Shown here: piece after piece, positions 506 to 22,148 of the stretch
Numbering within the stretch: position 1 is the first letter of the stretch
How the letters are laid out: each line of letters begins with the position of its first letter
NCBI GenBank assembly: GCA_963737265.1
Contig: CAVTRY010000022.1
Location: 32,001 to 96,000 of the forward strand
Source: an uncultured delta proteobacterium
GTDB taxonomy: Bacteria; Myxococcota_A; Polyangia; Fen-1088
Reading direction: 5' to 3'
Length of the DNA: 64,000 nucleotides
Notes under the pieces: model-generated
Told to the model about the DNA's origin: nothing
Seen by the model: only the letters and a program-made list of their open reading frames with translations
Database searches by the model: none
Translations under genes and position numbers: made by a program

Positions 506-2104
506 TCAAAGGCATTGCGGCTTCACCCGTCGGATGCCCTGCCCGTCGACGTAGAAGGGTGGGTTGCAGTCCTTCTTCTTCCGCCGATGGGTCGTCGACT
601 GTGCGGTGGTGCTTTGGGGGGACGCGCGACGAGGGATGGAGGGCGCACGCTGTTTCGATTCTACGGGCGCGGTCACGACAGGGGCGGGGTCGGGCTGAGA
701 CTTCACCAACTCGGGTAGAGCGATCACTTCGACGAGGGGCTTGACCCGAGCGTTGGCCTCGTCGGCGGCCTTGACTTCGCTTTGGTGCGAAGCACGGATG
801 ATGACGCCGCCGATCGCCACCACCAGAAGGGCCGCGCCAACCGTCATCGGCCAAGGCCTGCGCGTCCAAGAAAGCCACCGCAAAAACAACGTCGGGCGCG
901 ACGCCGTCCGTGTCTCGTCGAGATTCGTGCTCAACGCATCTTTGCCGGCTTCTTCGCCGTCTCCTTTGCTGCCTTGAAGAAGTTCCGTGCTAATAGCGTC
1001 GACGTCGCTGTAGGTGCCCGGTCGCTTGGGGATACGAAGCGGCGGGCAGGCCGCGCGCTGCGATCGCTGTTCCTGGAAGGGATCGCCAGACGGATCCGCA
1101 TCGAGCGGTGAGCTCTCAATGGCCGTCAGCCTCTCCGAGCTCTTGGCCAGGCCTTCACCTCCCAGGTAAACCACCCATTCGCCCACCTTGCGCGCCGTAG
1201 AGACGGCGATTTCTTCTTCGATGGCCTCGGCGAAGTCGCGGGCGGTCTGAAATCGAAGGCTGACGTCCCGCTCGAGGGCCTTCAGCACAACGCGATCCAG
1301 ACCAGGCGATACCCTGGGGTTGCTGGCGCTGGGACGATCGACGGGTGCCATCAGAACCTTGGCAATAGCTCCGCTGGGGTCGTCCGCTTCAAAGAGGCGC
1401 CGCAGCGTGAGCGCTTCCCAGAAGACGATGCCAGCCGCGAAAATGTCCGCGCGGCGATCAACGGAACCCCCACCCATCTGCTCGGGCGCCATGTAAGAAA
1501 GCTTGCCCTTGAGTTGCCCTTGCCGGGTCGACTGGCTACGCGAAACAGCCTTGGCAACGCCGAAGTCGAGCACGCGCGGCACGCCGTCCGTCCCCACCAT
1601 GATGTTGTGTGGCGATACGTCGCGATGAACGATGTTGAGGGGAGAGCCGAGCTCGTCCATTGCTTCATGCGCGGCGTGGAGGCCGTGGAGGGCGCCACTC
1701 ATGATGGCCGCGCTGATGGCAGGGGGCACGGCGGCGTTCATGGTAAACGCGCCTTTCAGCATGCGCGCCAGGGTTTCGCCGTGGATGTATTCCATCACCA
1801 AGAAGATCTCTTCGCTGTCCTCTAGCAGGACCACATCCAGCGGCGCCGCGACGTTGGGGTGTTGGATGCGCGACACCAGTCGGGCCTCGTCGAGAAACAT
1901 GGCAATGAACTCGGCGTCGCGCGAAAAGTGAGGATGCAGATACTTGATGGCGACGGTGCGCGAGAATCCGACAGCACCGCGCAGCCGTCCGAAATGGACG
2001 CTGGCCATACCACCGGAGGCGATCTCGTCGTACATGACGTAACGCCCAACCACACGCGATGGTTGGGCCTTCGACGGCACGGTGGGCGACGACGCAGAGA
2101 GCAT
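506..2104 (-). CDS. Membrane Ser/Thr protein kinase (Hanks type)
   Basis: GGMASV, VAIK, HRDVSPHN, DFG, YMAPE motifs; TM helix VGAALLVVAIGGVII; Pro-rich tail ending DCNPPFYVDGQGIRRVKPQCL. Confidence 0.95.
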   Translation of the reverse strand: MLSASSPTVPSKAQPSRVVGRYVMYDEIASGGMASVHFGRLRGAVGFSRTVAIKYLHPHFSRDAEFIAMFLDEARLVSRIQHPNVAAPLDVVLLEDSEEIFLVMEYIHGETLARMLKGAFTMNAAVPPAISAAIMSGALHGLHAAHEAMDELGSPLNIVHRDVSPHNIMVGTDGVPRVLDFGVAKAVSRSQSTRQGQLKGKLSYMAPEQMGGGSVDRRADIFAAGIVFWEALTLRRLFEADDPSGAIAKVLMAPVDRPSASNPRVSPGLDRVVLKALERDVSLRFQTARDFAEAIEEEIAVSTARKVGEWVVYLGGEGLAKSSERLTAIESSPLDADPSGDPFQEQRSQRAACPPLRIPKRPGTYSDVDAISTELLQGSKGDGEEAGKDALSTNLDETRTASRPTLFLRWLSWTRRPWPMTVGAALLVVAIGGVIIRASHQSEVKAADEANARVKPLVEVIALPELVKSQPDPAPVVTAPVESKQRAPSIPRRASPQSTTAQSTTHRRKKKDCNPPFYVDGQGIRRVKPQCL

Positions 2105-2247: not shown

Positions 2248-3393
2248 CTAAAGCGGCGGCTTGGCGTTGCGTACGAGATCGAGGAAGTAGGACTCGAACC
2301 ATTCGCCCGCCTGCGGCGCGCCCCTGGCGCTGTCGGACGACAGGCAGGCTTCGTCAAAGCGCGGCTGCTTGGGATCGGAGGTTCCGTCCGATTCTCCGGG
2401 CGGCTTGATCCACACGAACGCGTCGACACCGGGCTCGGGTTTGGCGCGAGGACGCTCGCCCAGGCCCGCGCCCTTGATGTTGCACCAATTGCCCCACTTG
2501 GTGCGGATGCCGCCCTTGCCATTACGCGATGTGTCCACGAGGAAGCCCTTGTCCTTGATGCCGTACATGCTCAGCGTCTCGCCGAGCATCTTCACGTAGG
2601 CAAGCTCGTTGGGGCAGGGATCGGTCGGCTCCAGCACGGCACCGTCGCGATTGCGCAAATGGGTGTAGTTCGACACATTCGTCACGAAGCCGCGGATCAT
2701 CTGCGTCCCGCCCGCCTCGACTAGAACCTTCTTGTAGACCTTAGCGATCTTCTCGCGATTGTCGTCCCAGCCCAGCCAACCGGCGTGACCGGCGTCGAGA
2801 TAGACACTCACATTGGGCAGGGCGAATTTCTTGAGCGCGTAAACCGTCGCGTCCCGATAAACCGACCGCGCGGCGACACATGAGGGAAGGCCCATGTTGG
2901 TGGCCAAGTTGGCCAGTGAATCCGGTTCCAGGATGATCACGATGGGCTGGTCGGCGTGGGTTTGGAAGAGTCCCGCGAGCGGATCGATGAATTCGTTGCG
3001 ATAGCGAGCCTCGCCGTTTTTCTCCACCCGCAGCTCGCCCTCCGACGAGTTGGCCGCGCAATCGCGATTGGGAAGATCGTAGAGGACGAGCATGACCGCG
3101 GTCGGCCGTCCGTTCGCGATCTGCTGCCGCTTGGCTTCGTCGAGCCAACCTGGAACCTTGGCTACCTGGGCGATGGAATCCAGCCACAGTCCCGTCGGCT
3201 GGCTCGCCACCTTGCGAATCGCGTCCGCCTCGTCGGGATGCCGGCGCGCCGTCGCCTCCACCCGCTCGGCGTAGGCAGGATCGATGAAGAAGGCCGCGCC
3301 CGCGAATGGATTGGCTTGTTGGCCAGCCTGACCTCCAAGAGCCGCCGCCGGTCCCATAAGAAGTGTGAGCCCCGCCAATATCAACTTGGTCAT
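2248..3393 (-). CDS. Glycoside hydrolase family 6 (secreted cellulase/cellobiohydrolase)
   Basis: Signal peptide; GH6 motifs YDLPNRDC, ILEPDSLAN, YLDAGHAGWLGW, DTSRNG, WCN, WIKPPGESDG. Confidence 0.93.
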   Translation of the reverse strand: MTKLILAGLTLLMGPAAALGGQAGQQANPFAGAAFFIDPAYAERVEATARRHPDEADAIRKVASQPTGLWLDSIAQVAKVPGWLDEAKRQQIANGRPTAVMLVLYDLPNRDCAANSSEGELRVEKNGEARYRNEFIDPLAGLFQTHADQPIVIILEPDSLANLATNMGLPSCVAARSVYRDATVYALKKFALPNVSVYLDAGHAGWLGWDDNREKIAKVYKKVLVEAGGTQMIRGFVTNVSNYTHLRNRDGAVLEPTDPCPNELAYVKMLGETLSMYGIKDKGFLVDTSRNGKGGIRTKWGNWCNIKGAGLGERPRAKPEPGVDAFVWIKPPGESDGTSDPKQPRFDEACLSSDSARGAPQAGEWFESYFLDLVRNAKPPL

Positions 3394-3476
3394 GTCGATT
3401 GTCTTCCTTTCTCTTCTCCGTCGTGGTCCTCACCACCGCATGCCTGAATGGCAACGGCGACGAAGACCTGTCGAGA

Positions 3477-3491
3477 GCAATCGGCGTACCA
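3477..3491 (-). promoter_or_regulatory. Putative sigma54 (-24/-12) promoter of the GH6 gene
   Basis: Minus strand TGGTAC-GCCGA-TTGC fits TGGCAC-N5-TTGC, about 85 bp upstream of the start codon at 3393. Confidence 0.65.
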
Positions 3492-3647
3492 GCGCGAGGG
3501 TGGCAAGGGATCTCGCTCTTGGTGCGCATCCCGGTTTCGTGGACGTCCGCGCGACAGTCAGCGGACGTCCGCGGCTGCCCGGATTGCTTCCACTTTCAGC
3601 GCGGGATCGCAAGCAGGTCGCGTCGCTGCGGGCGACCGCGCGAAAAC

Positions 3648-6074
3648 CTACCGTGACAAAGGCGGGTTCGCGTTTTGGACGAGCCGTAAGGCCTGCTCGG
3701 GAAACCAATCGCCCGCGGCCGGGTCGACCATTCCCCACAATGGATCGAAGTGGTTTCGCGCGTCGCCGGTGATGCCCCAGGGATTGTATTTCGAATAGTC
3801 CCACGCACGCGCGCCGCCCGCGGTATCGCATGGCCCGTCCGACTCGCCCGGTGACTTGAGCCACAAGAACGCATCCAGCAGCGGCATGCCCGTGTCGGCG
3901 GTGGGCGACTGGCCGAGACCCGCGCTAGGGGGATTGCACCAGTTGGCGGCGTTGAGCTTGTCGAGAATGTCCTTGGGCTGGTTGTACGGAGCCAGCGCAT
4001 AGGGAGACGTGTCGAGAACGCCACGGCCATTCCGGCTGGTGTCGATCACGAAGTGCGCAAGGGCTGCCGGTGCGGCAGGCGGATTGGCGGCGCTGTCGAC
4101 GTTGGCCGCGTACCAGGCATCCGCGACAGCCCTGGCTCCTTCGTCGTTCGGGCTCGTGATCAGGTCCGGGCTGGCGCAGGCCGAGAAATGGCCGATGCTC
4201 TGTCGTCCATTGGCTGGATTGCTTGCGTAGTAGATGCATTTGGAAATCCAGGTGGCGAATTGGACCGACCGCGGCGTGGGCTGGAAGTTCGCGACATTGA
4301 TGGCAAATCCCCGCACCTTTTGCATGCCGGCCTTCACCAAACGGTAAGCGACTTCTCCGACGGGCAGCCAGCCGCTGTGCGTGCCATCGAGATAGACCGA
4401 AGCGTTCGGCGCCTTACCGACCACGCTGTCTGCGGCGTAGTTGAGCTGTGCATAGCGTTCGGCGGGAGTGGCCCCCGGCGCTGGGATCTGGTTACCTTGG
4501 GCATCCGTGACCGTGGGTTTGCACCAATCGGTGAGGCCCTCGATGGTGGTGTTGTTGGGAACAATTCCGGTGCTGTCGGGTTCCAGAACAACAACCGCCC
4601 TTTCGTTGCCGATTCCGCTTGCGAAGGCATCAATCCACGCCCTGTACGCGGCGCCATCGGCGGCTCCGCCCGCCCCGTATTGGGCACAATCGCGGAAGGG
4701 CAGGTTGTAGGTGACAAGGATCGGAACACGCTGTTCGCGAACCGCCCGCACAATCGTGTTTCTGACCCCGGCTTGCACCTCGTCGGGCGAGCCCCCGACA
4801 AACCAAACCGCGTGCGGCGTGGCGGTCATGGCGGTGAGCGCGCCAGCCTCTTTGAAGGCATTGGTCTTGGCGAGGCTCGCGATCTGTTGAACCACGCCGG
4901 GAGAGGCCGGCGGCGTGTAGAACTGGGTGCCGGAAGGCAGCGCGCGGTTGCTGGCGCGGCGGGACGGTCTGGAAGCGCGGTGAACAACAATCCATGCCGT
5001 CGCCGCGCACAAGACCAAAGCCGCCACAGCGCCCCATGTTCGCAACGAGTGGTGATTTCGGGTCGGCCGCACGGGATTCCCGGGCGCCGCCGCGGCGGAT
5101 GCCGCGCCCTCGTTCGCGCGCCGGAGGTCTTCGCTCGGCGTCTCGGGCCAGACCTCGCGGCGAGCGAATGGCGCCAGCGCCTCGCCGAGATCCTTGGCGG
5201 AGGCAAAGCGTTCGCAAGGATCGGGTGCGAGCGATCGATGCACGATCTCGACAATTGGCGCCGGAAGCTCGGGCAGCAGTCCTGCGAGCGGAATCGCGGG
5301 CTGCGTGGCGATGTGATGGAGAATGGCGTTGTGCGACTCTCCTGGATGGGGTCTTTGCCCGGAAAACATCTCGTAGAGCACGGCCCCAAGCCCGTACACA
5401 TCGATTCGATGATCCGCGTCCCTGTCGCCGCGCGCTTGCTCGGGCGACATGTAGAACGGAGTTCCGAGCATGGTTCCCGTGCGCGTGGCCGCGCCTTGCG
5501 TGTCGGTTGCTTCGAGCTTTGCAATGCCGAAGTCGAGAACTTTGAGCAGGTCGGTTTCGTCCTCGCGACGGCAGACGAACAGATTCTGCGGCTTGAGGTC
5601 GCGGTGAATGATGCCGGCGAGGTGGGCCGCGTGCACGCCCTTGCACGCCTGAATGCACAGGTCGGCTGCGCGCCCGACGGGCAGGTGCTGTTCGCGCGCG
5701 AGCAGTGCCGCGAGGCTTTCGCCGGTGAGATGCTCCATCACGATGAAAGGAGATCCATCACTGGTGATGCCGAAGTCCAGCGCTGCCGCGATGTGCTCGC
5801 TCTCGATGCGCCCGGCGCTCTCGGCCTCGCGCTGAAATCTCTCCAAGCTCTCCCGCTGCCGGGAGAAATCCGGGCGTAGCACCTTCACGGCGAAGCGTCG
5901 CTTGACGACGATGTGTTGCGCCTCGTACACGGCGGCCATCCCGCCCTCGGCGAGAAAGCGGACGACACGATACTTGCCCCCGAGGATCTCCCCGACCTCG
6001 CGCCCTGGTTCGGCTCGATCACGCGAAGAGCTCCCCTGGTGAGCGCGACCTTCCCTGGTAGTCCATGCGAGCAT
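3648..6074 (-). CDS. Ser/Thr kinase - transmembrane helix - GH6 fusion protein (808 aa)
   Basis: One continuous ORF. N-terminal kinase (EGGMAAVY, FAVK, HRDLKPQN, DFG, YMSPE); TM WGAVAALVLCAATAWIVV; C-terminal GH6 (YNLPFRDC, VLEPDS, YLDGTHSGWL, DTSRNG, WCNP, WLKSPGESDG). Confidence 0.93.
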   Translation of the reverse strand: MLAWTTREGRAHQGSSSRDRAEPGREVGEILGGKYRVVRFLAEGGMAAVYEAQHIVVKRRFAVKVLRPDFSRQRESLERFQREAESAGRIESEHIAAALDFGITSDGSPFIVMEHLTGESLAALLAREQHLPVGRAADLCIQACKGVHAAHLAGIIHRDLKPQNLFVCRREDETDLLKVLDFGIAKLEATDTQGAATRTGTMLGTPFYMSPEQARGDRDADHRIDVYGLGAVLYEMFSGQRPHPGESHNAILHHIATQPAIPLAGLLPELPAPIVEIVHRSLAPDPCERFASAKDLGEALAPFARREVWPETPSEDLRRANEGAASAAAAPGNPVRPTRNHHSLRTWGAVAALVLCAATAWIVVHRASRPSRRASNRALPSGTQFYTPPASPGVVQQIASLAKTNAFKEAGALTAMTATPHAVWFVGGSPDEVQAGVRNTIVRAVREQRVPILVTYNLPFRDCAQYGAGGAADGAAYRAWIDAFASGIGNERAVVVLEPDSTGIVPNNTTIEGLTDWCKPTVTDAQGNQIPAPGATPAERYAQLNYAADSVVGKAPNASVYLDGTHSGWLPVGEVAYRLVKAGMQKVRGFAINVANFQPTPRSVQFATWISKCIYYASNPANGRQSIGHFSACASPDLITSPNDEGARAVADAWYAANVDSAANPPAAPAALAHFVIDTSRNGRGVLDTSPYALAPYNQPKDILDKLNAANWCNPPSAGLGQSPTADTGMPLLDAFLWLKSPGESDGPCDTAGGARAWDYSKYNPWGITGDARNHFDPLWGMVDPAAGDWFPEQALRLVQNANPPLSR

Positions 6075-6134
6075 TCTATTTCACCATCTTCACCAATCGT
6101 CCAATGTCCTACGCGAACCCCAAGTCCCGCTAAT

Positions 6135-6711
6135 GGGTGCCTCCCTGAAACGGGGGCCCCAGCCGGGGGCTCGGTGAGGTAGCAACTTCTGGCGGAGTGC
6201 CGCCGAAAACGCAGATCTGGAACAGCGAGGAACGGAGAAACAGAGACAGGATGACTTTACTGGGCAAATTATCGCCGCCTGCATCGAAGTCCACCGTCAC
6301 CTCGGTCCCGGGCTGCTTGAGTCGGCCTACGAGCACTGCCTGGCGCGCGAGCTAGGCCTGCGTGGATTTCGCACGCAACGTCAGGTCGCGATTCCTCTGC
6401 AGTACAAAGGCATTGACCTCGACTGCGGCTATCGCCTCGACCTCATGGTGGAAGGCCGTTTGGTCGTCGAAGTCAAGGCGGTAGAGCAGTTGCTTCCTGT
6501 CCACTTGGCACAGTCATTACCTATCTCAAGCTCCTACGACTGCCGGTGGGCCTGCTCGTCAATTTCCACGTCCCCGTACTTCGCGAGGGTCTCCGCCGCC
6601 TCTCAACCCAACCCGTGATCCCTCTGGTCCTCCGTTCCTCCCTGTTTTTCCCTCCGATCCCACCTGCGCGGGGCGAGGTGAAGCCACAGCCCCCATTTCA
6701 GGGAAGCACCC
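6135..6711 (+). mobile_element. GxxExxY-carrying TIR element, copy 1 (577 bp; ORF has CTG in place of ATG and a 1-bp deletion)
   Basis: Ends GGGTGCCTCCCTGAAACGGGGGC and GCCCCCATTTCAGGGAAGCACCC; 9-bp target duplication CCCGCTAAT at 6126-6134 and 6712-6720. Confidence 0.9.
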
Positions 6712-6823
6712 CCCGCTAATGTCCCGCTGGCGCGCCGGCACGTGAAGTGTCAGCATAGCAAAATGCGTCCGTTCTCAGAGCCTGCGGGAGTGTCAAGGTT
6801 TGCGCTCTGAACCAGGTGCTGGC

Positions 6824-8230
6824 GTGGGATCCGGTGTGGGCAACACGACGGTGGTGACAACCGACGCGGGAGCGCGGAGCGTGGTCGGCCAGTCCGAGCT
6901 GTTGCTCACCTGGATGTTCCCTCAGCCGTCGCAACCGGCGATCGGTCTGCACTTGGGGGGAGCGGCCGAGCTCGTCGTCGGGCGCGACGAAGGGTGTTTG
7001 GTTCACCTGCCCGGAAACGATGTTTCGCGGCGGCACGCGGCACTGCGGAAGAACGAGGCTGGCTCCGGCGTCGAGGTCGTCGACCTGGGCAGCCGTAACG
7101 GCGTCTACGTCAACGGCCGGCGCGTCTCCTCGGCCCCGCTGCGGCGCGGGGACGTGGTCCGTCTCGGTGGCTGGGTGGGCGTGGTGACCGAGGCCGCCGG
7201 AACCTGCAAGGAAATCGCGCCTGGCTTGTTCGGGGGCGCGACGTTGCAGTCGGTGCTGGCGCCGGTGCAGCGCGCGGCTGCGAGCGATCTACCCATCATC
7301 CTCGAAGGCGAGACGGGAACCGGCAAGGAAGTGGTCACCCGCAGCGTCCACAAGTGGAGCGGGCGTTCCGGCCCGCTCGTGGCCGTCAACTGCGCGGCGT
7401 TGCCCGAGGCTCTCGCCGAGGGTGAATTGTTCGGGTACCGGCGCGGCGCCTTTACCGGCGCGGACAGGCCGAGCCCGGGTTTCTTCCGCAGCGCCGATCG
7501 CGGCACGCTGTTGCTGGACGAGGTGACGGATTTGCCGCTCGGGCTGCAGGCAAAACTGTTGCGCGTGCTCGAAGCGCACGAAGTCCAACCCCTGGGCGAG
7601 CCGCGCCCGATCCCAATCGACGTGCGCGTGGTGGTGGCGGGCCAACAATCGCTCATCGAAGCTTCGCGCCACGGGCGCTTCCGACCCGATCTGCTGGCGC
7701 GGCTCAACGGTGTCACCGTGCGTTTGCCGCCGCTGCGCAGCCGGCGCGAGGACGTGCCTCCGCTGTTCTCCCATTTCCTGGCCGAGCTGGGACAGGGCTG
7801 CGTGCCCGCGGTGGAAGGCGATTTCGTGGAGCGACTGTGCCTTCACGACTGGCCCTTCAATGTCCGCGAGCTGTTGCTGCTTGCTCGTCGACTCATGGTT
7901 CTTCACGGCGGCGAATCCACGCTGCGCACGTCGTACCTACCGGAGCGAATCGGAGATCTGTCGACGCCTCGACTGCCGCCAGGTGGCGCCGAGACGGCGC
8001 GCCCCCCGGCTACTTTCCCGGCTATGTCCGCCGTCAAAGCGAGTCCGGTCGAGCCCGTGGAGCTTCCCGCGCTGGTCGCCGCCTTGCGCACGTCCGGCGG
8101 CAACGTCGCGCGCGCAGCGGCGATTTTGGGCATCACCCGCCAGCGGGCCTACCGCTTGATGGACGGCAGCGCCGTCGATCTCGAGGCCTTGCGCAACCAA
8201 GAGCAAGGGCAAAAGGACAGCGGCCCGTGA
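6824..8230 (+). CDS. FHA-domain sigma54-dependent transcriptional activator (FHA-AAA+-Fis HTH)
   Basis: FHA (VGRDE, VSRRHA, DLGSRNG), Walker A GETGTGKE, GAFTGA loop, LLLDEV, WPFNVREL, HTH GNVARAAAILGITR. Start GTG 6824 chosen by homology to the mini-ORF at 9141 (track ORF starts at 6800). Confidence 0.93.
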   Translation: MGSGVGNTTVVTTDAGARSVVGQSELLLTWMFPQPSQPAIGLHLGGAAELVVGRDEGCLVHLPGNDVSRRHAALRKNEAGSGVEVVDLGSRNGVYVNGRRVSSAPLRRGDVVRLGGWVGVVTEAAGTCKEIAPGLFGGATLQSVLAPVQRAAASDLPIILEGETGTGKEVVTRSVHKWSGRSGPLVAVNCAALPEALAEGELFGYRRGAFTGADRPSPGFFRSADRGTLLLDEVTDLPLGLQAKLLRVLEAHEVQPLGEPRPIPIDVRVVVAGQQSLIEASRHGRFRPDLLARLNGVTVRLPPLRSRREDVPPLFSHFLAELGQGCVPAVEGDFVERLCLHDWPFNVRELLLLARRLMVLHGGESTLRTSYLPERIGDLSTPRLPPGGAETARPPATFPAMSAVKASPVEPVELPALVAALRTSGGNVARAAAILGITRQRAYRLMDGSAVDLEALRNQEQGQKDSGP

Positions 8231-8325: not shown

Positions 8326-8902
8326 TGGTGCTTCCCTGAAATGGGGGCTGGGGCTTCACCTCGCCCCGCGCAGGTGGGATCGGAGGGAAAAACAGGGAGG
8401 AACGGAGGACCAGAGGGATCACGGGTTGGGTTGAGAGGCGGCGGAGACCCTCGCGAAGTACGGGGACGTGGAAATTGACGAGCAGGCCCACCGGCAGTCG
8501 TAGGAGCTTGAGATAGGTAATGACTGTGCCAAGTGGACAGGAAGCAACTGCTCTACCGCCTTGACTTCGACGACCAAACGGCCTTCCACCATGAGGTCGA
8601 GGCGATAGCCGCAGTCGAGGTCAATGCCTTTGTACTGCAGAGGAATCGCGACCTGACGTTGCGTGCGAAATCCACGCAGGCCTAGCTCGCGCGCCAGGCA
8701 GTGCTCGTAGGCCGACTCAAGCAGCCCGGGACCGAGGTGACGGTGGACTTCGATGCAGGCGGCGATAATTTGCCCAGTAAAGTCATCCTGTCTCTGTTTC
8801 TCCGTTCCTCGCTGTTCCATATCTGCGTTTTCGGCGGCACTCCGCCAGAAGTTGCTACCTCACCGAGCCCCCGGCTGGGGCCCCCGTTTCAGGGAGGCAC
8901 CC
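8326..8902 (-). mobile_element. GxxExxY-carrying TIR element, copy 2 (577 bp, inverted; frameshifted ORF 8419-8820)
   Basis: Same TIRs with one terminal base variant (T at 8326); 9-bp duplication TCCCCGCGA at 8317-8325 and 8903-8911. Confidence 0.9.
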
Positions 8903-9140
8903 TCCCCGCGATGGACATAACGGTGGCCTCGAGCGTCGGATCAATGCCCTACCGGTGGTCGCGAATTCGAGACTTTGGGATTGCGCGCGAAGCCCGCGCT
9001 ATATGGAATCGTGATCCCATCGGTGCTCCACGAAGCAGGATGAGCGCAAGGTCCGGCTGGCGCGCTGGCGCCCGCGGTGTCAGCATTGGCGCGTGCGTCT
9101 GCTGGGGTGTGCAACCAGGTAAGCCTAATCATGGAATAGC

Positions 9141-9284
9141 ATGGGATTCGGTGTGGCTAATACGAAGGTGGCGACCACCGTCGACCTGGGCAGCCGCGTC
9201 TACGTCAAAGGCCGGCGCTTCTCTTCGGCCCCGCTGCGGCGCGGGGACGTGGTTCGGCCGGGTGGCTGGGAGGCCGGGCCGTGA
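9141..9284 (+). pseudogene. 47-aa internally deleted relic of the FHA-sigma54 activator gene
   Basis: MGFGVANTKVATT-VDLGSRVYVKGRRFSSAPLRRGDVVRPGGW-EAGP* matches the activator N-terminus (MGSGVGNTTVVTT), its FHA segment (7079-7175) and its GP-stop end. Stop overlaps the kinase start (GTGA). Confidence 0.7.
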
Positions 9285-10702
9285 GCACCAAATTGCAGAC
9301 CAGTCGGGTCGGCGATCTCGTGGGGGAGAAATACCGCATCCTTCGTATCATCGCGGAAGGCGGAATGGGCGTCGTGTATGAGGCGCAGCACGCAGTGGTC
9401 AAGCGACGCTTCGCCATCAAGTTTCTACGCACCGATCTCGCCGACCGCCGCGATCTGCTGACCAGGTTTCATCGCGAGGCAGAGTCCGCCGGGGCGCTCG
9501 AGAGCGAGCACATCGCGGCGGCCATCGACTTTGGCATTCATGGCGATGGCACGCCCTACATCGTGATGGAATATCTCGTCGGTGAGAGCCTTGCTGCGCT
9601 GCTTGCGCGGGATGGGCGCCTGCCAGTGGGGCGCGCGGTCGACCTGTGTCTTCAGGCGTGCAAGGGCGTGCAGGCGGCGCACAGTGCGGGCATCGTCCAC
9701 CGCGACCTCAAGCCAGAGAATCTGTTTGTCACTCGACGCGAGGACGGCAGCGACGTCGTCAAGGTGCTCGACTTTGGCGTTGCGAAGCTGGAGCAGGCCG
9801 AGATCAGCCACGCGGCGACGACCACGGGAACCATTCTTGGAACGCCAGCTTACATGTCGCCCGAGCAAGCGCGCGGCGACAAGAGCATCGATCACAGAAC
9901 CGACGTTTACGGATTGGCGGCCATCTTGTTCGAGATGCTCTCGGGAAAGAAGCCTCATCCGGGGGATTCCCCCAATGCGATCCTGCACCACATTGCCACG
10001 CAACCTGCTCTGCCCCTAGCTTCGGTCGAGCCCGATCTACCGCCGCTGCTCGTGGACACGGTCGAGCGCGCTTTGTCATGCGATCGAAGCCAGCGCCACG
10101 CTTCCGCGGAAGCGCTGGGACTTGCGCTCGTGCCATTCACGAAGCGCGAGGTGTGGCCTGCGGCGAATGGTTCCGACCCGATTTCCGAGGTGGCCGCGGC
10201 ATCGCCCGTGCCGGGTTGGCGGTCGGCGGACTTCGAGAGTCCCACCGTTCCTGCTTCGGGGAAGCCGGCACGGCCTCGCCGACACCCGTGGACCATCGCC
10301 GCGGTTGGCGCCGGACTGGTCGCCCTGGCCGTCATTGCGATCTTGGTGGGAGCGAGGAGCACCCAACCTCCGAACGTGACGCAGACCGCGCCCGACAATG
10401 GCCACCGCCCCATCGTGCCTACGCCAGCCGAGCTGCCGGCGCCCGCGCCCGTGCCGGCCGAAACAGCGGTCCTTGCGCCCAACAGCGAGCAGGTGGCAAC
10501 GACCAGCGAGCCTCCGCCGTCCCACTTGGGCGACCGTCCGCGGCCCGCGCGGAGTCGCGCCGAACGTCCGATCGGACGTCCCACCGAACGTCCAGGAGAG
10601 ATTCGGGATTCCACGCCGTCGCTTTCCGCCCCACCGCCCGGTTCCTCGCAAGCGCACTCGGCGCCCGTCACTTTCGACCCGCACAATCCGTACGGAGACT
10701 GA
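9281..10702 (+). CDS. Membrane Ser/Thr protein kinase
   Basis: EGGMGVVY, HRDLKPEN, DFG, YMSPE; TM IAAVGAGLVALAVIAILVGA; Pro-rich tail ending FDPHNPYGD. Close paralog of the kinase part of 3648-6074. Confidence 0.95.
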   Translation: MSTKLQTSRVGDLVGEKYRILRIIAEGGMGVVYEAQHAVVKRRFAIKFLRTDLADRRDLLTRFHREAESAGALESEHIAAAIDFGIHGDGTPYIVMEYLVGESLAALLARDGRLPVGRAVDLCLQACKGVQAAHSAGIVHRDLKPENLFVTRREDGSDVVKVLDFGVAKLEQAEISHAATTTGTILGTPAYMSPEQARGDKSIDHRTDVYGLAAILFEMLSGKKPHPGDSPNAILHHIATQPALPLASVEPDLPPLLVDTVERALSCDRSQRHASAEALGLALVPFTKREVWPAANGSDPISEVAAASPVPGWRSADFESPTVPASGKPARPRRHPWTIAAVGAGLVALAVIAILVGARSTQPPNVTQTAPDNGHRPIVPTPAELPAPAPVPAETAVLAPNSEQVATTSEPPPSHLGDRPRPARSRAERPIGRPTERPGEIRDSTPSLSAPPPGSSQAHSAPVTFDPHNPYGD

Positions 10703-10703
10703 G

Positions 10704-11861
10704 ATGGCATACGATGTGCTGACCAATTCCCACCAGGGGCGCACGTCGCGGATTCTAATCATCATAATGGTGGTGCTCGGTTGGACAAGGACAGCACGGA
10801 CAGCCGAGCCATCACCTGAAGACGCACGTGAGGCGGCGAGACTGCACTACGCTCGTGGGCTCGAGCTGGCCGGCCAGGCCGACTACGAGGCCGCGCTGCG
10901 AGAGTTTACCGAGGCGTACGCGGTCAGCCCACACTTTGCCGTTCTCTACAACATCGGTCAGGCCGAGTTCGCGCTCGGCCGTCCCCAGGAAGCCATCGAA
11001 AGCCTATCCAGGTACCTGCGCGACGGTCAGGAGCAGATCCCGCCGACGCGGCGCCAGGACGTGCAGGCACAAATCGCACTTCTGGAGTCCCTTTTTGCCG
11101 AGCTGACGATCAACGCCGACCGTTCGGGTGTGCTGATCGCAGTCGATGGTCGCGAGATCGGCCGCACTCCCCTCTACCAGAGCATCAGGCTTGCGACCGG
11201 GACGCACAGGGTTGCCGCCACCCTGGAAGGAACGGAGACAATCAATCGAACCGTGACGCTCGTACCGGGGGATCGCCAGGTTCTGACCCTGGAGATGCCC
11301 GCTCCACCCGTGGCGGCGGCGAAGGTCGCGCAGGTTGAACCTGCGCCAGCCGTGCTTCCACCCGCAGGCGCGCCGACGGCGTTTGGGGCCGAGGCGGGCC
11401 CGAAAGCTCTACCCGAGTCGGCACTTGAGCGGCGAGTTGAGCCCGGCACACAAGCTCGGCGGCGCACGATGTCCATCTTGGGGTATTCAGCCGCTGGGGT
11501 GGGCGTGGCGCTTGGCGGCGCGGCACTTGGCGTGTACCTGTGGAATCGTGGTCGCTATCAGGATTGGCAAGACAACAACGCGGCTCTTCAGCAAGACAAG
11601 GGCGCGATCGACTTCCACGCCCGTCAGATGGCGAACAACCAGCTCGCCGACTCGCTCACGCGGGCCAACCATGTCATCGTGGGCCTGTCCATCGCTGGCG
11701 GAGTGCTCCTTGTGGGAGGTGTCGTACTCTGGGCGCGCGATCGGCTCCGGGGTGCGAACGAAGTGGAGGCTTCACCGGGCAAGACAGTTTCCGGCATCAG
11801 CATGGGATTGGCCTGGCAAGGGCGCTCGTCGGCAAACATTTCCTGGAGTGCTCCGTGGTAG
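10704..11861 (+). CDS. TPR + PEGA domain secreted/membrane protein
   Basis: Start MAYDVLT just after the kinase stop; TPR-like AARLHYARGLEL...VLYNIGQAE; PEGA IAVDGREIGRTPL; two hydrophobic helices and a terminal Trp. Confidence 0.85.
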   Translation: MAYDVLTNSHQGRTSRILIIIMVVLGWTRTARTAEPSPEDAREAARLHYARGLELAGQADYEAALREFTEAYAVSPHFAVLYNIGQAEFALGRPQEAIESLSRYLRDGQEQIPPTRRQDVQAQIALLESLFAELTINADRSGVLIAVDGREIGRTPLYQSIRLATGTHRVAATLEGTETINRTVTLVPGDRQVLTLEMPAPPVAAAKVAQVEPAPAVLPPAGAPTAFGAEAGPKALPESALERRVEPGTQARRRTMSILGYSAAGVGVALGGAALGVYLWNRGRYQDWQDNNAALQQDKGAIDFHARQMANNQLADSLTRANHVIVGLSIAGGVLLVGGVVLWARDRLRGANEVEASPGKTVSGISMGLAWQGRSSANISWSAPW

Positions 11862-11881
11862 CGGCGCTAACCGCCACACGA

Positions 11882-12577
11882 ATGCGCGGAATTGGATTTC
11901 TCCTACCTACCCTGGTACTTCAGGCCTGCTTTGACGTGCACCAGGTCGATCCAGGCAATGGACGCTTCGTCATCGACGACTTCGAAGACGGCGACCCGCT
12001 GCCCAAGGCTACGCCTCTGTTTCGCCAATGGCAGTGCTACACGTACAATCCGAACATTGGACAAGACCCGGCTCAGATTCAGACTGTGAGTTGCGACGTG
12101 AGGCCCCCCGGCGACAAAAGTGACTACGCAATGGTTACCAAGTTCGCTCTGCATAATTTACCCAATGAGGATTTGCAAGGCGGGGCTGCCTTGGTGACGA
12201 GTGCCGACCCAATGGTCGATCTCAATGGCTACCAGAACCTCGTCTTCAACTTGAGGGTCGATTTCGGCGATCTTCCTTCGACCAGCTTTGCATACGTGGC
12301 TCTCGACTGCGATTCAGTCACGGCGGAGAGTAAAAAGGTGGAAACCGACTTATTCCAAGTTGAGCAGCGGATCCCAGCCCCCAGCAATAGCTGGTCGACA
12401 ATTACACTGCCGCTGTCGAAGTTCGCCCAGCCCACATGGCAGAACAACCGCTTCGCTGACGGAACACAAGCATGTCTGGCCGTCGTCGATAGCATCAACT
12501 TTGGGGTCAACGGACAACTAGTGGGTGACCAATCGGGACATGGAGTTATCTACCTTGACGACGTCTCTTTGCAGTAG
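11882..12577 (+). CDS. Lipoprotein with CBM11/galactose-binding-like domain
   Basis: Lipobox-like LVLQAC; VIDDFEDGD, VDLNGYQNLVF, WSTITLPLSKF, IYLDDVSLQ pattern typical of CBM11/CIA30-like beta-sandwiches. Confidence 0.65.
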   Translation: MRGIGFLLPTLVLQACFDVHQVDPGNGRFVIDDFEDGDPLPKATPLFRQWQCYTYNPNIGQDPAQIQTVSCDVRPPGDKSDYAMVTKFALHNLPNEDLQGGAALVTSADPMVDLNGYQNLVFNLRVDFGDLPSTSFAYVALDCDSVTAESKKVETDLFQVEQRIPAPSNSWSTITLPLSKFAQPTWQNNRFADGTQACLAVVDSINFGVNGQLVGDQSGHGVIYLDDVSLQ

Positions 12578-12581
12578 CTTG

Positions 12582-14281: not shown

Positions 14282-14296
14282 TGGTACGGTCGTTGC
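14282..14296 (+). promoter_or_regulatory. Putative sigma54 promoter of the clan GH-A hydrolase gene
   Basis: TGGTAC-GGTCG-TTGC, followed by an AGGAGG RBS (14310-14315) and GTG at 14325. Confidence 0.7.
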
Positions 14297-14324
14297 TTCG
14301 GCTTCGTATAGGAGGAACTAACAC

Positions 14325-16643: not shown

Positions 16644-16818
16644 TTGCTTGTGCGCTGCAAAAACGGACGACATGGACGTCCGGCGGACGTCCGGCCCCGT
16701 CCGGCCCGACGTCCACTTGACCCGCGCGCGGCACACGCGCAGTATCTTTCCGGCGGCCGTGAAGATAAGCGCCGCGCTCTATTGGTGCGAATCGAAATTG
16801 GGACCGCGGCATCAGTAT

Positions 16819-16833
16819 TGGTCCATGAGTTGC
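16819..16833 (+). promoter_or_regulatory. Putative sigma54 promoter of the GH6 lipoprotein gene
   Basis: TGGTCC-ATGAG-TTGC (GG-N10-GC spacing), about 60 bp upstream of ATG 16892. Confidence 0.6.
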
Positions 16834-16891: not shown

Positions 16892-18328
16892 ATGAAGACA
16901 CGAACAATTGTAGCAATGCTGACCTTTGGCGGTTTACTTGGAGTAACGGGCTGTGACGGCGATTCGGCTGGCACCGCCACCCCCGAGGCAACCGCGAAGC
17001 TCGCAGCGGAAACGAAACCAACGCCCAGCCGTCGTCTCGATCCAGGCACGGAATTCTACGTGCCGGCGCCGGACGATGGGGCCGTGGCGCAAGCATGGGA
17101 GCTATTGAAGTCGAGGGATCTGCACGATGCGCGCAAGTTAATGGCCTTGGTCACCACGCCGCATGCGGCCTGGTTTACCAGTGGGTCGCCGGACGAGGTC
17201 AAGCGGGCCGTTCATCAAACCATGGAGGCCGCCGAGCGCGAACACCGCGTGCCGGTGCTGGTTGCCTACAATCTGCCCTATCGCGATTGCGCCCAGTACT
17301 CATCAGGTGGAGCCACGGACACCGCCGCGTACGAGGCATGGATCGACGGCTTCGCGCAAGGCATTGGCAGGAGGAAGGCGGTCGTCATCCTCGAACCTGA
17401 CGGCCTCGGCCTTATCCCCTACAACACGACAATCAATAATGTCGCCGAGTGGTGCAAACCCACGGTCACGGATTCCGCAGGCAACACGATTCCCGCGCCA
17501 GGGGCAAGCCCAGCCGACCGCTACGCGCAGATCAACTACGCCGTCGACAGTATCGAGGGCCACGCGCCACAGGCATCGGTCTATCTTGATGCCGGACACA
17601 GCGCTTGGCTAGGCGTGGGGGAGGCCGCCTACCGCCTCGCCAAGGCGGGCGTCGCGCGGGCGCAGGGATTCTTCCTCAACGTGTCGAACTACCAATTGAC
17701 GAGCGATTCGATTCAGTTTGGGACCTGGGTATCGATGGCCATCGCCGCGCCGTCGGGCGCTCCTTCGTGGGCCTTCGACAGCAGTGGCAATTTCCACTTC
17801 GATTGGCTTCCGAGTCAGTACGACCCCGCGACGAATTACACCATGGTCAACTACAGCCCGGCCTTCGCGGCGACGGTGACGGCGGGGATTCAGTCATTCA
17901 TGGGCAGCGCGGTGGCGACAACGCAATTTGTGATCGACACCGGTCGCAACGGACAGGGGCCACTCAACACCGCGCCGTACGCCCTCGCGCCCTACAATCA
18001 GTCCGCAGCTGTCATCAGCGGACTCAATTCGGGCGCTTGGTGCAATGCCTATGGCGCGGGCGTGGGACTGCGTCCGTCGGCCAATACCGGGGTTGCGCTT
18101 CTCGATGCCTATCTTTGGGTGAAGGTCCCCGGCGAGTCAGACGGCAGCTGTGACATTGCCGGTGGCGCTCGCGCCTGGGACTACACCGCATACAATCCCT
18201 GGGGGCTGACCGGCGATGCGCAAAATCATTTCGATCCACTGTGGGGCGTGGTCGACGCTCCGGCGGGCGCGTGGCTCGCCGCGCAGGCGCTGCAACTGGC
18301 GAAGAACGCAGACCCAAGCTGGCGCTAG
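16892..18328 (+). CDS. Glycoside hydrolase family 6 lipoprotein
   Basis: Lipobox VTGC; YNLPYRDC, ILEPDG, YLDAGHSAWL, DTGRNG, WCN, WVKVPGESDG. Close paralog of the GH6 part of the kinase fusion. Confidence 0.93.
   Translation: MKTRTIVAMLTFGGLLGVTGCDGDSAGTATPEATAKLAAETKPTPSRRLDPGTEFYVPAPDDGAVAQAWELLKSRDLHDARKLMALVTTPHAAWFTSGSPDEVKRAVHQTMEAAEREHRVPVLVAYNLPYRDCAQYSSGGATDTAAYEAWIDGFAQGIGRRKAVVILEPDGLGLIPYNTTINNVAEWCKPTVTDSAGNTIPAPGASPADRYAQINYAVDSIEGHAPQASVYLDAGHSAWLGVGEAAYRLAKAGVARAQGFFLNVSNYQLTSDSIQFGTWVSMAIAAPSGAPSWAFDSSGNFHFDWLPSQYDPATNYTMVNYSPAFAATVTAGIQSFMGSAVATTQFVIDTGRNGQGPLNTAPYALAPYNQSAAVISGLNSGAWCNAYGAGVGLRPSANTGVALLDAYLWVKVPGESDGSCDIAGGARAWDYTAYNPWGLTGDAQNHFDPLWGVVDAPAGAWLAAQALQLAKNADPSWR

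Positions 18329-21107: not shown

Positions 21108-22148
<1,041 letters not shown>

What the first reader, a model, noticed from the sequence alone, without database searches (positions are those of the whole stretch)
3648..6074. Receptor kinase with a GH6 cellulase as its extracytoplasmic domain
Seen: one uninterrupted ORF joins an intact Hanks kinase, a TM helix and a full GH6 domain that keeps the RDC, EPD and GESDG aspartate motifs. Both halves have close paralogs in this window: the kinase at 9281 (shared to the REVWP motif) and the GH6 lipoprotein at 16892 (shared WCKPTVTD.GN.IPAPGA and GGARAWDY..YNPWG segments), which suggests local domain shuffling. Established: GH/CBM modules act as polysaccharide sensors on clostridial RsgI anti-sigma factors, and PASTA domains do so on PknB-type kinases. 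I do not know a characterised kinase-GH6 receptor. Inference: a periplasmic cellodextrin/cellulose sensor that may also hydrolyse its own ligand. Caveat: basic residues flank the TM on both sides, so topology is not proven.
Basis: partly seen in the sequence, partly recalled or inferred. Interest (0 to 1): 0.88.

Follow-up and report, generated by a model that had tools for sequence, protein, structure and literature searches.

The report
Membrane kinase with cellulase-fold sensor domain
A soil myxobacterium carries a membrane signalling kinase whose outer part is a cellulase-type domain, most likely a sugar-chain sensor that switches on neighbouring cellulase genes, an arrangement conserved in its uncultured relatives but not described in the papers searched.

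Summary
Window 3648-6074 (-) is one 808-aa ORF: Hanks kinase (35-291), one TM helix (~346-367), GH6 domain (380-808) with all catalytic Asp.

The fusion is not an assembly artefact. All 120 listed clusters carry Pkinase+GH6. It occurs in at least 15 other genomes of one uncultured Polyangia family.

New points:
1. The fused GH6 domains form one clade. Kinase catalytic residues are essentially invariant. The GH6 acid Asp is kept in 78 of 120 and the base Asp in 91 of 120, against 113 of 113 in the unfused sister clade. This argues for binding rather than hydrolysis.
2. An FHA-sigma54 activator gene lies directly upstream in 14 of 15 other loci.
3. Neighbouring GH6 genes carry a sigma54-like promoter preceded by GGACGTCC repeats. 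This holds in 6 of 6 loci where a GH6 gene follows. Three of the five composite sites in the genome lie in this locus.

"Local domain shuffling" is not supported. The kinase at 9281 is a second fused paralogue with an in-frame GH6 deletion.

Best reading: a periplasmic beta-1,4-glucan sensor kinase acting through the FHA activator and sigma54 on GH6 genes. All function is inferred. No paper describing it was found. I rate it a new variant of a known kind.

The parts
3648..6074 (-). Kinase-TM-GH6 gene (P0001, 808 aa)
   Evidence: Single ORF with both Pfam domains. Full-length homologues at 47-89% identity in 119 other clusters.
5202..5972 (-). Hanks-type Ser/Thr kinase domain, residues 35-291
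   Evidence: Pkinase 134 bits. N164, D181-F182-G183 and E212 are kept in 120 of 120, D159 in 119 of 120, and K64 and E83 in 117 of 120 with 3 gaps. pLDDT is mostly above 85.
4983..5039 (-). Single transmembrane segment, residues 346-364
   Evidence: Kyte-Doolittle peak of 2.03. There is one peak in 113 of 120 family members and two in 7. AF2 helix 347-367.
3651..4937 (-). Extracytoplasmic GH6-fold domain, residues 380-808. Catalytic-type residues: D462 (4689-4691), D500 (4575-4577), D746 (3837-3839).
   Evidence: Pfam GH6. AF2 model pLDDT 91. Best fold matches are M. tuberculosis Cel6 1up0 (TM 0.86 on target) and T. fusca Cel6A. Best sequence match in PDB is 1up0.
6800..8230 (+). FHA - sigma54 AAA+ - HTH_8 enhancer-binding protein, the proposed downstream partner
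   Evidence: Pfam: FHA 59-123, Sigma54_activat 148-307, AAA_lid_14, HTH_8. FHA residues G61, R62, S76, R77, H79, N100, G101, the Walker A motif and GAFTGA are invariant in 15 of 15 orthologues. It lies directly upstream of the fused kinase in 14 of 15 other loci.
2248..3393 (-). Canonical secreted GH6 (381 aa), proposed target gene
   Evidence: GH6 341 bits. An orthologue follows the fused kinase in L082, L083 and L084.
3477..3491 (-). sigma54-like -24/-12 element TGGTACGCCGATTGC, 83 nt before the GH6 start
   Evidence: 9 of 10 consensus positions with GG and GC kept. Expected 0.013 per 400 nt. A near-identical element sits in L001/L084, L082 and L083.
3541..3570 (.). Two GGACGTCC palindromes, candidate enhancer
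   Evidence: One of only 4 such pairs (60 nt apart or less) in the 6.55-Mb genome. Conserved in L082, L083 and L084.
16892..18328 (+). GH6 lipoprotein (P0003) of the unfused sister clade, proposed target gene
   Evidence: GH6 224 bits, 51% identical to the sensor domain. Lipoprotein-type signal ending in GVTGC (my reading of the motif). All four Asp are kept in 113 of 113 clade members.
16674..16833 (+). GGACGTCC repeats (16674-16692) and sigma54-like element TGGTCCATGAGTTGC (16819-16833)
   Evidence: The same layout occurs in L090, L091 and L092, and in 4 of 10 stand-alone lipoprotein loci.
9281..10702 (+). Paralogous kinase (473 aa) with its GH6 domain deleted in frame
   Evidence: Its kinase domain nests inside the fused clade next to P0016 and P0013 (85% identity, supports 96 and 99). 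P0016 residues 1-399 and 846-901 align in one frame.
10562..11861 (+). Three GAACGTCC/GGACGTCC repeats (10562-10593), a sigma54-like element (10705-10719) and a TPR-PEGA gene (about 10767-11861)
   Evidence: Composite scan, sequence, Pfam TPR and PEGA. TPR-PEGA follows the fused kinase in L088 and L093/L002.
9135..9276 (+). Relic of a second FHA-activator gene just before the 9281 kinase
   Evidence: 47 aa, 66% identical to activator residues 85-125. An 81-nt direct repeat is 89% identical.
6135..6710 (.). PDDEXK_3 repeat copy inserted 61 nt upstream of the kinase-GH6 start. Its perfect inverted partner lies at 8327-8902.
   Evidence: 576-nt inverted repeat, 100% complementary. PDDEXK_3 103.6 bits. 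44 matches in the genome, 37 of them covering at least 500 of the 576 bases.

Best explanation
P0001 is a receptor-type Hanks Ser/Thr kinase. The kinase domain sits in the cytoplasm, followed by one membrane helix, and about 12 residues later a GH6-fold domain in the periplasm. The GH6 cleft most likely binds soluble beta-1,4-glucan chains (cello-oligosaccharides) released outside by the organism's many secreted cellulases. Inferred steps: ligand binding, possibly by bringing receptors together on one chain, activates autophosphorylation. Phosphothreonine is read by the FHA domain of the neighbouring sigma54 enhancer-binding protein. That protein binds tandem GGACGTCC sites and activates sigma54 promoters in front of the adjacent GH6 genes and a TPR-PEGA operon, which would give a feed-forward induction loop. 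In this protein the catalytic residues are intact, so it may also cleave and so turn over its ligand. In about a third of family members the domain appears to be a binding-only pseudoenzyme. Shown by computation: the architecture, its conservation, the pattern of residue loss, the gene linkage and the conserved DNA motifs. Inferred: topology, ligand, phosphotransfer route and regulon.
For: Architecture and fold. Conservation: all 120 listed clusters carry both domains, from JGI, ENA, NCBI and Logan assemblies. The fused gene occurs in G000 plus at least 15 of 71 other family-f1 genomes sampled, and no fused match was listed in the other families. Only 2 full-length and 1 partial representative exist among 1.84 billion 50%-identity representatives. 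Sensor rather than enzyme: kinase residues are essentially invariant, but D500 is kept in 78 of 120 and D746 in 91 of 120, and only 77 of 120 keep all four Asp. The unfused sister clade keeps all in 113 of 113. The catalytic state changes at least 8 times on the tree. Of 102 columns invariant in the unfused clade, 61 stay at 95% or more in the fused proteins, including 9 of 11 Trp. Exported location: four Cys are invariant in 120 of 120 and two more in 117 of 120, and the sister protein has a lipoprotein signal. Pathway: the FHA activator lies directly upstream on the same strand in 14 of 15 other loci, its FHA pocket residues, Walker A and GAFTGA are invariant in 15 of 15, and rpoN is present. 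Outputs: a sigma54-like element plus GGACGTCC repeats precede the GH6 gene in 6 of 6 loci where one follows the kinase. In G000 only 5 composite sites exist, and 3 of them are in this 14-kb locus. Only 4 GGACGTCC pairs exist genome-wide, and 2 precede these GH6 genes. Lifestyle: 7 GH6, 13 GH5 and 6 GH9 matches over cut-off, and no BcsB. Precedent: the RsgI6 GH10 sensor has very low activity, keeps binding and resembles its target xylanase (PMC4711584, passages).
Against: There is no expression, binding, activity or phosphorylation data. P0001's own TM flanks carry 3 (N side) versus 5 (C side) basic residues. In this genome the kinase gene is cut off from the activator gene by a repeat insertion and lies divergent to it, so its expression and coupling here are uncertain. 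The loose sigma54 pattern is not clearly enriched in the window as a whole (90 found against 74 expected; 2 of 100 shuffles reached 90). One fused locus (L091) has no activator within 1.5 kb. 4 of 10 stand-alone lipoprotein loci show neither motif. The four other GH6 genes of the genome elsewhere, and the kinase-GH6 gene itself, have no sigma54-like element within 400 nt. The GH6 subfamily carries about 130 extra residues and has no characterised member, so the ligand is a guess from family membership. No tool here links this particular activator to the GGACGTCC sites.
Confidence: 0.58

Rival explanations
1. It is chiefly a membrane-anchored periplasmic cellodextrinase or endoglucanase. Its job is hydrolysis, and the kinase domain responds to something else or merely regulates the enzyme.
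For: P0001 keeps Y456, R461, D462, D500, D563, K740 and D746. Its fold is closest to active endoglucanases. 77 of 120 family members keep all four Asp.
Against: 43 of 120 members have lost the acid and/or the base, with at least 8 changes of state on the tree, while the unfused clade never lost them. So hydrolysis is not what keeps the fusion. The kinase is the most conserved part.
Confidence: 0.15
2. It is a sensor, but for a glycan other than cellulose-derived chains, such as mixed-linkage glucan, xyloglucan, chitosan, a prey or fungal wall polymer, or the cell's own exopolysaccharide.
For: The subfamily has large insertions and no characterised member. The nearest unfused relatives outside Polyangia are in Actinoplanes, Nakamurella and Arthrobacter. 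The co-regulated neighbours include unassigned lipoproteins and a possible GH44/GH30-like protein, which are leads only.
Against: As far as I recall, characterised GH6 enzymes act on beta-1,4-glucans. The linked target genes are themselves GH6. The genome is rich in GH5, GH6 and GH9 matches and no BcsB was found.
Confidence: 0.17
3. In this genome the gene is a stranded, no longer functional copy. The repeat insertion 61 nt upstream and the rearrangement uncoupled it from its activator, much as the neighbouring module has already decayed.
For: A PDDEXK_3 repeat lies at 6135-6710, and the activator is now divergent. The second module has lost its GH6 domain and most of its activator. No sigma70-like promoter was found in 3300-6900.
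Against: The ORF is intact with every catalytic and structural residue in place. The closest relative, P0004, is 89% identical over 97% of the length. The activator gene and its putative target sites are intact next door.
Confidence: 0.08
4. The fusion is an assembly or gene-calling artefact joining a kinase gene and a GH6 gene.
For: The source is a metagenome-assembled genome with 7.6% estimated contamination. No public contig covers the junction.
Against: The same continuous frame is found in 119 other clusters from several sources and in at least 15 other genomes with no internal stops. The fused GH6 domains form their own clade.
Confidence: 0.01

Closest known systems
RsgI6 anti-sigma-I factor of Clostridium thermocellum, which has a GH10 module as its extracytoplasmic sensor
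   Same: In both, a glycoside-hydrolase catalytic fold is reused as the outside sensing module of a single-pass membrane signalling protein that controls polysaccharidase genes. According to passages of PMC4711584, the RsgI6 GH10 module has very low activity, keeps binding, and is 57% identical to a target xylanase. Here the sensor GH6 is 51% identical to a putative target GH6, and a third of the family has lost catalytic residues.
   Different: The transduction chemistry differs: a Hanks kinase with an FHA activator and sigma54 instead of an anti-sigma/sigma-I pair with regulated proteolysis. The hydrolase family differs (GH6, not GH10). The host here is a diderm, so the domain would be periplasmic and would see oligomers rather than the insoluble polymer. 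No RsgI_N domain was found.
PknB/PrkC-type receptor Ser/Thr kinases with PASTA domains
   Same: Both have an N-terminal cytoplasmic Hanks kinase, one TM helix and an extracytoplasmic glycan-binding module. Activation by ligand-promoted dimerisation is the model for these kinases (from my own knowledge).
   Different: There is no PASTA domain. The sensor is an enzyme fold of about 430 aa, and the proposed ligand is a nutrient-derived glucan rather than a muropeptide.
FHA-domain enhancer-binding proteins of Myxococcus xanthus (Jelsbak, Givskov and Kaiser 2005; only the title was seen, in the reference list of PMC12288465; content recalled)
   Same: The activator has the same FHA-AAA+-HTH architecture, which led to the proposal that Ser/Thr kinases feed sigma54 activators through phosphothreonine recognition.
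   Different: Here the kinase partner is encoded directly alongside, usually overlapping the activator gene. The kinase also has an identifiable sensor domain and candidate target promoters. The physiological setting would be carbohydrate use rather than development.
GH6 endoglucanases M. tuberculosis Cel6 (1up0) and T. fusca Cel6A (1tml/2bod)
   Same: The fold matches (TM 0.83-0.86 on target). The catalytic motifs and the Cys positions of RDC, WCNP and DG.C align.
   Different: The sensor domain has about 130 extra residues in insertions (429 aa against 286-294 aa) and is tethered to a kinase. Within its clade the catalytic residues are dispensable.

Membership tests
Hanks-type (eukaryotic-like) Ser/Thr protein kinase, Pfam PF00069 | Profile match over the curated cut-off | tested here: met
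   134.1 bits against a cut-off of 31.7, residues 35-291.
Hanks-type (eukaryotic-like) Ser/Thr protein kinase, Pfam PF00069 | Catalytic residues: Gly-rich loop, VAIK Lys, alpha-C Glu, HRD Asp, catalytic-loop Asn, DFG, (A/S)PE | tested here: met
   G44/G45, K64, E83, H157-R158-D159, N164, D181-F182-G183 and P211-E212 are all present in P0001 and kept in 110-120 of 120 family members, with gaps accounting for nearly all of the rest. The catalytic-loop Lys161 is Asn in 50 of 120 relatives but is Lys here.
Hanks-type (eukaryotic-like) Ser/Thr protein kinase, Pfam PF00069 | Phosphotransfer activity | not testable with these tools
   Needs an autophosphorylation assay.
Glycoside hydrolase family 6 (Pfam PF01341; CAZy GH6) | Profile match and GH6 fold | tested here: met
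   196.5 bits against a cut-off of 27. AF2 pLDDT 91. All of the best 50 Foldseek rows listed are GH6 structures or T. fusca Cel6A-derived scaffolds; top hit 1up0, E 6e-23.
Glycoside hydrolase family 6 (Pfam PF01341; CAZy GH6) | Catalytic Asp residues in the RDC, EPD and GESDG motifs (their roles are recalled from the GH6 literature) | tested here: met
   D462, D500 and D746 are present in P0001. In the fused family only 77 of 120 keep all, against 113 of 113 in the unfused clade.
Glycoside hydrolase family 6 (Pfam PF01341; CAZy GH6) | Hydrolysis of beta-1,4-glucan | not testable with these tools
   Needs an enzyme assay.
PknB/PrkC PASTA receptor kinases | Extracytoplasmic PASTA repeats | tested here: not met
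   No PASTA match in Pfam at E 0.01 or better. It works like these kinases but is not a member.
RsgI-type polysaccharide biosensors | N-terminal anti-sigma-I (RsgI_N) domain paired with a SigI gene | tested here: not met
   The N-terminus is a kinase, with no RsgI_N match. The neighbours are an FHA activator, kinases and GH6 genes. This is an analogue only.
sigma54 enhancer-binding protein with FHA input (neighbour at 6800-8230) | FHA phosphothreonine pocket, AAA+ domain with GAFTGA, C-terminal HTH | tested here: met
   Pfam FHA, Sigma54_activat, AAA_lid_14 and HTH_8. G61, R62, S76, R77, H79, N100, G101, GETGTGKE and GAFTGA are invariant in 15 of 15.
sigma54-dependent promoter (in front of the GH6 genes) | -24 GG and -12 GC elements at fixed spacing, an upstream activator site, and sigma54 encoded in the genome | tested here: inconclusive
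   The sequence features are present and conserved, and rpoN is present. Use of these promoters has not been shown.

The most novel reading that the evidence does not exclude
An enzyme-turned-receptor circuit: a GH6 cellulase domain fused to a Hanks kinase senses cello-oligosaccharides in the periplasm of uncultured cellulolytic Polyangia. It drives an FHA-domain enhancer-binding protein that switches on sigma54-dependent GH6 genes through GGACGTCC enhancer repeats. As far as my searches show, this would be the first Ser/Thr-kinase to FHA-activator to sigma54 pathway with a named input and named outputs. It would also offer a natural series from catalytically intact sensors (ligand turnover ends the signal) to dead, binding-only ones.
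Probability: 0.4. Interest if true: 0.75.

Novelty: new variant of a known kind. Interest (0 to 1): 0.64.

Why it matters
How Gram-negative cellulose degraders sense an insoluble substrate is poorly understood. The best-studied biosensors (RsgI/SigI) belong to Gram-positive clostridia and use a different signalling logic. FHA-domain sigma54 activators are common in myxobacteria, and as far as I recall very few, if any, have a known kinase, signal and regulon. This locus offers all three as testable predictions in one compact, conserved module. It also gives a clean evolutionary example of an enzyme fold drifting into a receptor: catalytic residues were lost at least 8 times while the rest of the domain stayed conserved. 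Practically, it points to a candidate cellodextrin-responsive switch and to a GH6 subfamily with no characterised member.

Tried and rejected
Read support for the junction. The look-up of sequencing runs found 4 soil-metagenome runs of one study. Laying them gave only short Logan contigs at depth about 3-4 on the unique parts, and none covers 4930-5160. This says nothing either way. The same call showed depth of about 60 on the 8327-8902 repeat.

Binding of the kinase (residues 20-345) to the FHA domain (residues 30-140). Complex prediction returned no verdict (scores 0.08 and 0.02, mark 0.32). This is not evidence for or against binding.

Loose sigma54 pattern over the whole window. 90 matches against 74 expected, with 2 of 100 shuffles reaching 90. 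That is not clearly enriched by itself, so I used stricter, position-specific and comparative tests instead.

Simple sigma70 promoter and terminator scan of 3300-6900. It found none.

'Local domain shuffling' is rejected on the trees and on the in-frame deletion.

'Rosetta-stone' fusion of activator and kinase. P0112 (1048 aa) starts inside the activator's lid and HTH and reads on into kinase-GH6. It lacks the FHA and AAA+ parts, so I take it as a read-through gene call that confirms adjacency, not as a true fusion.

Own cellulose as ligand. No BcsB match was found in a genome estimated 99.5% complete. This is weak evidence and rests on one family only.

The third GGACGTCC pair in the window (24037-24074) lies inside a UPF0158 ORF and was not pursued.

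Pfam found nothing at E 5 or better for orf712 and orf308, and only a sub-threshold CIA30 hit for orf345. PDB sequence search of orf712 found nothing.

Literature. Eight searches found no paper describing a kinase-GH6 protein or a sigma54/FHA-controlled cellulase. In PMC12093494 (passages via find) 'kinase' occurs 0 times.
Full report
**1. What is there**

Window 3648-6074 (-) is one uninterrupted 808-aa ORF.
- Pfam finds a protein kinase domain at residues 35-291 (134 bits) and a GH6 domain at 405-753 (196.5 bits).
- There is a single hydrophobic segment at 346-364.
- A full-length AlphaFold2 model (55-row alignment, mean pLDDT 83.8) shows a confident kinase domain, a low-confidence stretch at 323-347, one helix at 347-367, and the GH6 domain starting about a dozen residues later.
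- The GH6 domain modelled alone has pLDDT 91. Its best structural matches are the endoglucanases M. tuberculosis Cel6 and T. fusca Cel6A, with TM 0.83-0.86 on the target. About 130 residues are extra relative to those enzymes.
- Both paralogue claims are right: 59% identity to the kinase at 9281 and 51% to the GH6 lipoprotein at 16892.

**2. The fusion is real and conserved, but narrow**

- All 120 listed clusters of the 5.8-billion-protein search carry Pkinase plus GH6, at 47-89% identity. They come from JGI, ENA, NCBI and Logan assemblies. Where a source names them, it calls them only 'endoglucanase' or 'glycoside hydrolase family 6 protein [Polyangia bacterium]'.
- I searched 401 genomes of the class. 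The fused frame, without internal stops, is in the window's genome and in at least 15 others, all in one GTDB family (f1; 71 other genomes sampled). This count is a floor, because the search used a strict first look.
- Against 1.84 billion 50%-identity representatives, only two full-length matches and one fragment span both domains.
- Every named record is a metagenome-assembled genome of Polyangia or 'Myxococcales'.
- Public contigs do not cover the junction, so the support is comparative and does not come from reads.

**3. Sensor rather than enzyme**

I aligned the 120 fused proteins.
- In the kinase domain, N164, D181-F182-G183 and E212 are kept in 120 of 120. D159 is kept in 119 of 120. 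K64 and E83 are kept in 117 of 120, with 3 gaps.
- In the GH6 domain, the acid-position Asp (D500) is kept in only 78 of 120 (N 25, H 7, S 6, and others). The base-position Asp (D746) is kept in 91 of 120 (V 14, S 9, and others). Only 77 of 120 keep all four Asp.
- As a control I took the unfused sister clade, relatives of the lipoprotein P0003. Of its 120 hits, the 112 that are at least 430 aa long were used together with P0003 itself. All four Asp are kept in 113 of 113.
- On a FastTree of 238 rows rooted on five actinobacterial relatives, the fused GH6 domains form one clade (SH-like support 98). The catalytic state changes at least 8 times, and all changes lie inside that clade.
- Of 102 columns that are at least 98% invariant in the unfused clade, 61 remain at 95% or more in the fused clade. 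These include 9 of 11 Trp. The relaxed columns include Y456, R461, D500, D678, K740 and D746.

So the domain as a whole is under constraint, but catalysis is not. That is what one expects of a binding module. P0001 itself keeps every catalytic residue and may be active.

**4. Topology**

Across the family the N-side flank is richer (mean 4.4 versus 3.4; N>C in 73, equal in 26, N<C in 21 of 120).

Three other arguments carry more weight:
- A kinase needs cytoplasmic ATP and there is one TM segment. This is an inference.
- Four Cys are invariant in 120 of 120 and two more in 117 of 120. Three of them align with Cys of the secreted Mtb enzyme.
- The sister protein has a lipoprotein-type signal.

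Because myxobacteria are diderm, 'outside' means periplasm. The ligand should therefore be soluble oligomers rather than the fibre. This is an inference.

**5. A conserved partner**

Divergent from the gene lies an FHA - sigma54 AAA+ - HTH_8 activator at 6800-8230.
- In 14 of the 15 fused loci from other genomes, the orthologous activator gene lies immediately upstream on the same strand, abutting or overlapping the kinase start. One locus, L091, has none within the 1.5 kb available. L001, L002 and L004 appear to be three of the same loci, because their alignment figures are identical.
- The FHA pocket residues (G61, R62, S76, R77, H79, N100, G101), the Walker A motif and GAFTGA are invariant in 15 of 15.
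- rpoN is present in the genome.
- FHA-type sigma54 activators are a known myxobacterial theme. I saw only the title of Jelsbak et al. 2005, in a reference list; its content is recalled.

**6. Conserved candidate outputs**

- The canonical GH6 gene directly downstream (2248-3393) is preceded by TGGTACGCCGATTGC, which matches 9 of 10 consensus positions and sits 83 nt from the start codon. Two GGACGTCC palindromes lie a little further upstream, at 3541-3570.
- The GH6 lipoprotein gene has TGGTCCATGAGTTGC (8 of 10) with tandem GGACGTCC repeats about 135 nt upstream.
- Of the genome's 7 GH6 genes, only these two have such an element within 400 nt. The expectation is 0.13 per 400 nt for 8 or more matches and 0.013 for 9 or more.
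- GGACGTCC occurs 163 times in the genome, but pairs within 60 nt occur only 4 times. Two of the four are these sites.
- A composite scan asked for at least 2 repeats with at most 1 mismatch, then a sigma54-like element 30-200 nt downstream. It finds 5 sites in 13.1 Mb of both strands. Three are in this locus: the two GH6 genes and the TPR-PEGA gene at about 10767.
- The layout recurs in 6 of 6 other loci where a GH6 gene follows the fused kinase (L082, L083, L084, L090, L091, L092). It recurs fully in 4 of 10 stand-alone lipoprotein loci. Two more have a sigma54-like element without two repeats, and four have neither.
- Among the first 80 loci (1.1 Mb), only L001 and L002 hold a GGACGTCC pair.

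Nothing here shows which protein binds the repeats. The adjacent activator is the obvious candidate.

**7. Local history**

- The kinase at 9281 nests inside the fused-kinase clade beside P0016 and P0013 (85% identity, supports 96 and 99).
- P0016, a 901-aa fused protein, aligns to it over residues 1-399 and 846-901 in one frame. So this kinase is a second fused lineage with a clean in-frame loss of the GH6 domain.
- A 47-aa relic of an FHA domain sits just before it.
- The surviving activator gene is bracketed by a perfect 576-nt inverted repeat of a PDDEXK_3 element. That element gives 44 matches in the genome, 37 of them covering at least 500 of the 576 bases.
- One repeat copy ends 61 nt before the P0001 start. 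In this genome, therefore, the usual activator-kinase coupling is broken, and the orientation of the activator segment could flip by recombination.
- The two arms of the locus reproduce the gene orders seen in L001 (activator, fused kinase, canonical GH6) and in L002 (activator, fused kinase, TPR-PEGA, two lipoproteins, GH6 lipoprotein).

**8. Setting**

The 6.55-Mb genome has 7 GH6, 13 GH5 and 6 GH9 matches over cut-off, and no BcsB or LPMO10 match. This fits a cellulose or beta-glucan degrader sensing an external substrate. Of the 26 GH5/6/9 frames, only this one carries a kinase motif.

**9. Comparison and novelty**

The closest functional analogue is RsgI6 of C. thermocellum. Its GH10 module has very low activity, keeps binding and resembles a target xylanase (PMC4711584, passages). 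The transduction machinery here is different, and there are no RsgI_N or PASTA domains.

Eight full-text searches found no description of a kinase-GH6 protein or of sigma54/FHA control of cellulases. Supplements were closed.

I rate it a new variant of a known kind: a receptor Ser/Thr kinase with an enzyme-derived glycan sensor. It comes with an unusually complete predicted circuit. All functional steps remain inferences.

Noticed in passing
window 6135-6710 and 8327-8902; also about 43378-43945 and 55104-55680: A 576-nt dispersed repeat derived from a PDDEXK_3 (GxxExxY-type) gene, without a canonical start and apparently frameshifted. It gives 44 matches in the genome, 37 of them covering at least 500 of the 576 bases. 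Two copies form a 100% inverted repeat around the FHA-activator gene, so that segment could invert by recombination. Public contigs show depth of about 60 on the repeat against 3-4 on the flanks.
   Followed up: partly
window 9281-10702 (+): The paralogous kinase is a fused kinase-GH6 gene of a second lineage (P0016 type) with an in-frame deletion of about 446 residues that removes the whole GH6 domain. The TM segment and the C-terminal tail are kept.
   Followed up: yes
window 9135-9276 (+): Relic of a second FHA-activator gene (47 aa, 66% identical to residues 85-125 of the intact one) directly before the 9281 kinase.
   Followed up: partly
window 14282-16463 (+): A 712-aa lipoprotein-like ORF with NEP and TEM-type motifs (my reading) and no Pfam or PDB match. 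The protein atlas gives GH44, GH30 and CBM11 clusters as leads. A sigma54-like element (TGGTACGGTCGTTGC, 9 of 10) lies 29 nt before its start, with no GGACGTCC repeat. It sits next to the GH6 lipoprotein also in L098 and L104.
   Followed up: partly
window 11540-13451 (+): Two conserved ORFs after TPR-PEGA have lipoprotein-type signals (my reading) and no family. There is only a sub-threshold CIA30 hit for the first (E 0.023). They keep their place in L002.
   Followed up: partly
family alignment, position of P0001 K161: The catalytic-loop Lys of HRDLKPxN is Asn in 50 of 120 fused kinases (49 of them in fully Asp-retaining proteins), while all other catalytic residues stay invariant.
   Followed up: no
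P0280, P0278, P0015/P0084 (search hits): P0280, whose kinase domain is 58% identical, carries a C-terminal metallo-beta-lactamase domain instead of GH6. P0278 is a GH6 of this subfamily behind collagen repeats. Some fused proteins have C-terminal extensions of about 150 aa with no Pfam match.
   Followed up: no
window 24037-24074: A third GGACGTCC pair of the genome's four lies inside a UPF0158 ORF, with no suitably placed sigma54-like element.
   Followed up: no
window 506-2104 (-) and 21108-22148 (-): Two further Hanks kinase genes lie in the neighbourhood. The first follows the canonical GH6 gene, and its orthologue is also near the module in L001.
   Followed up: no
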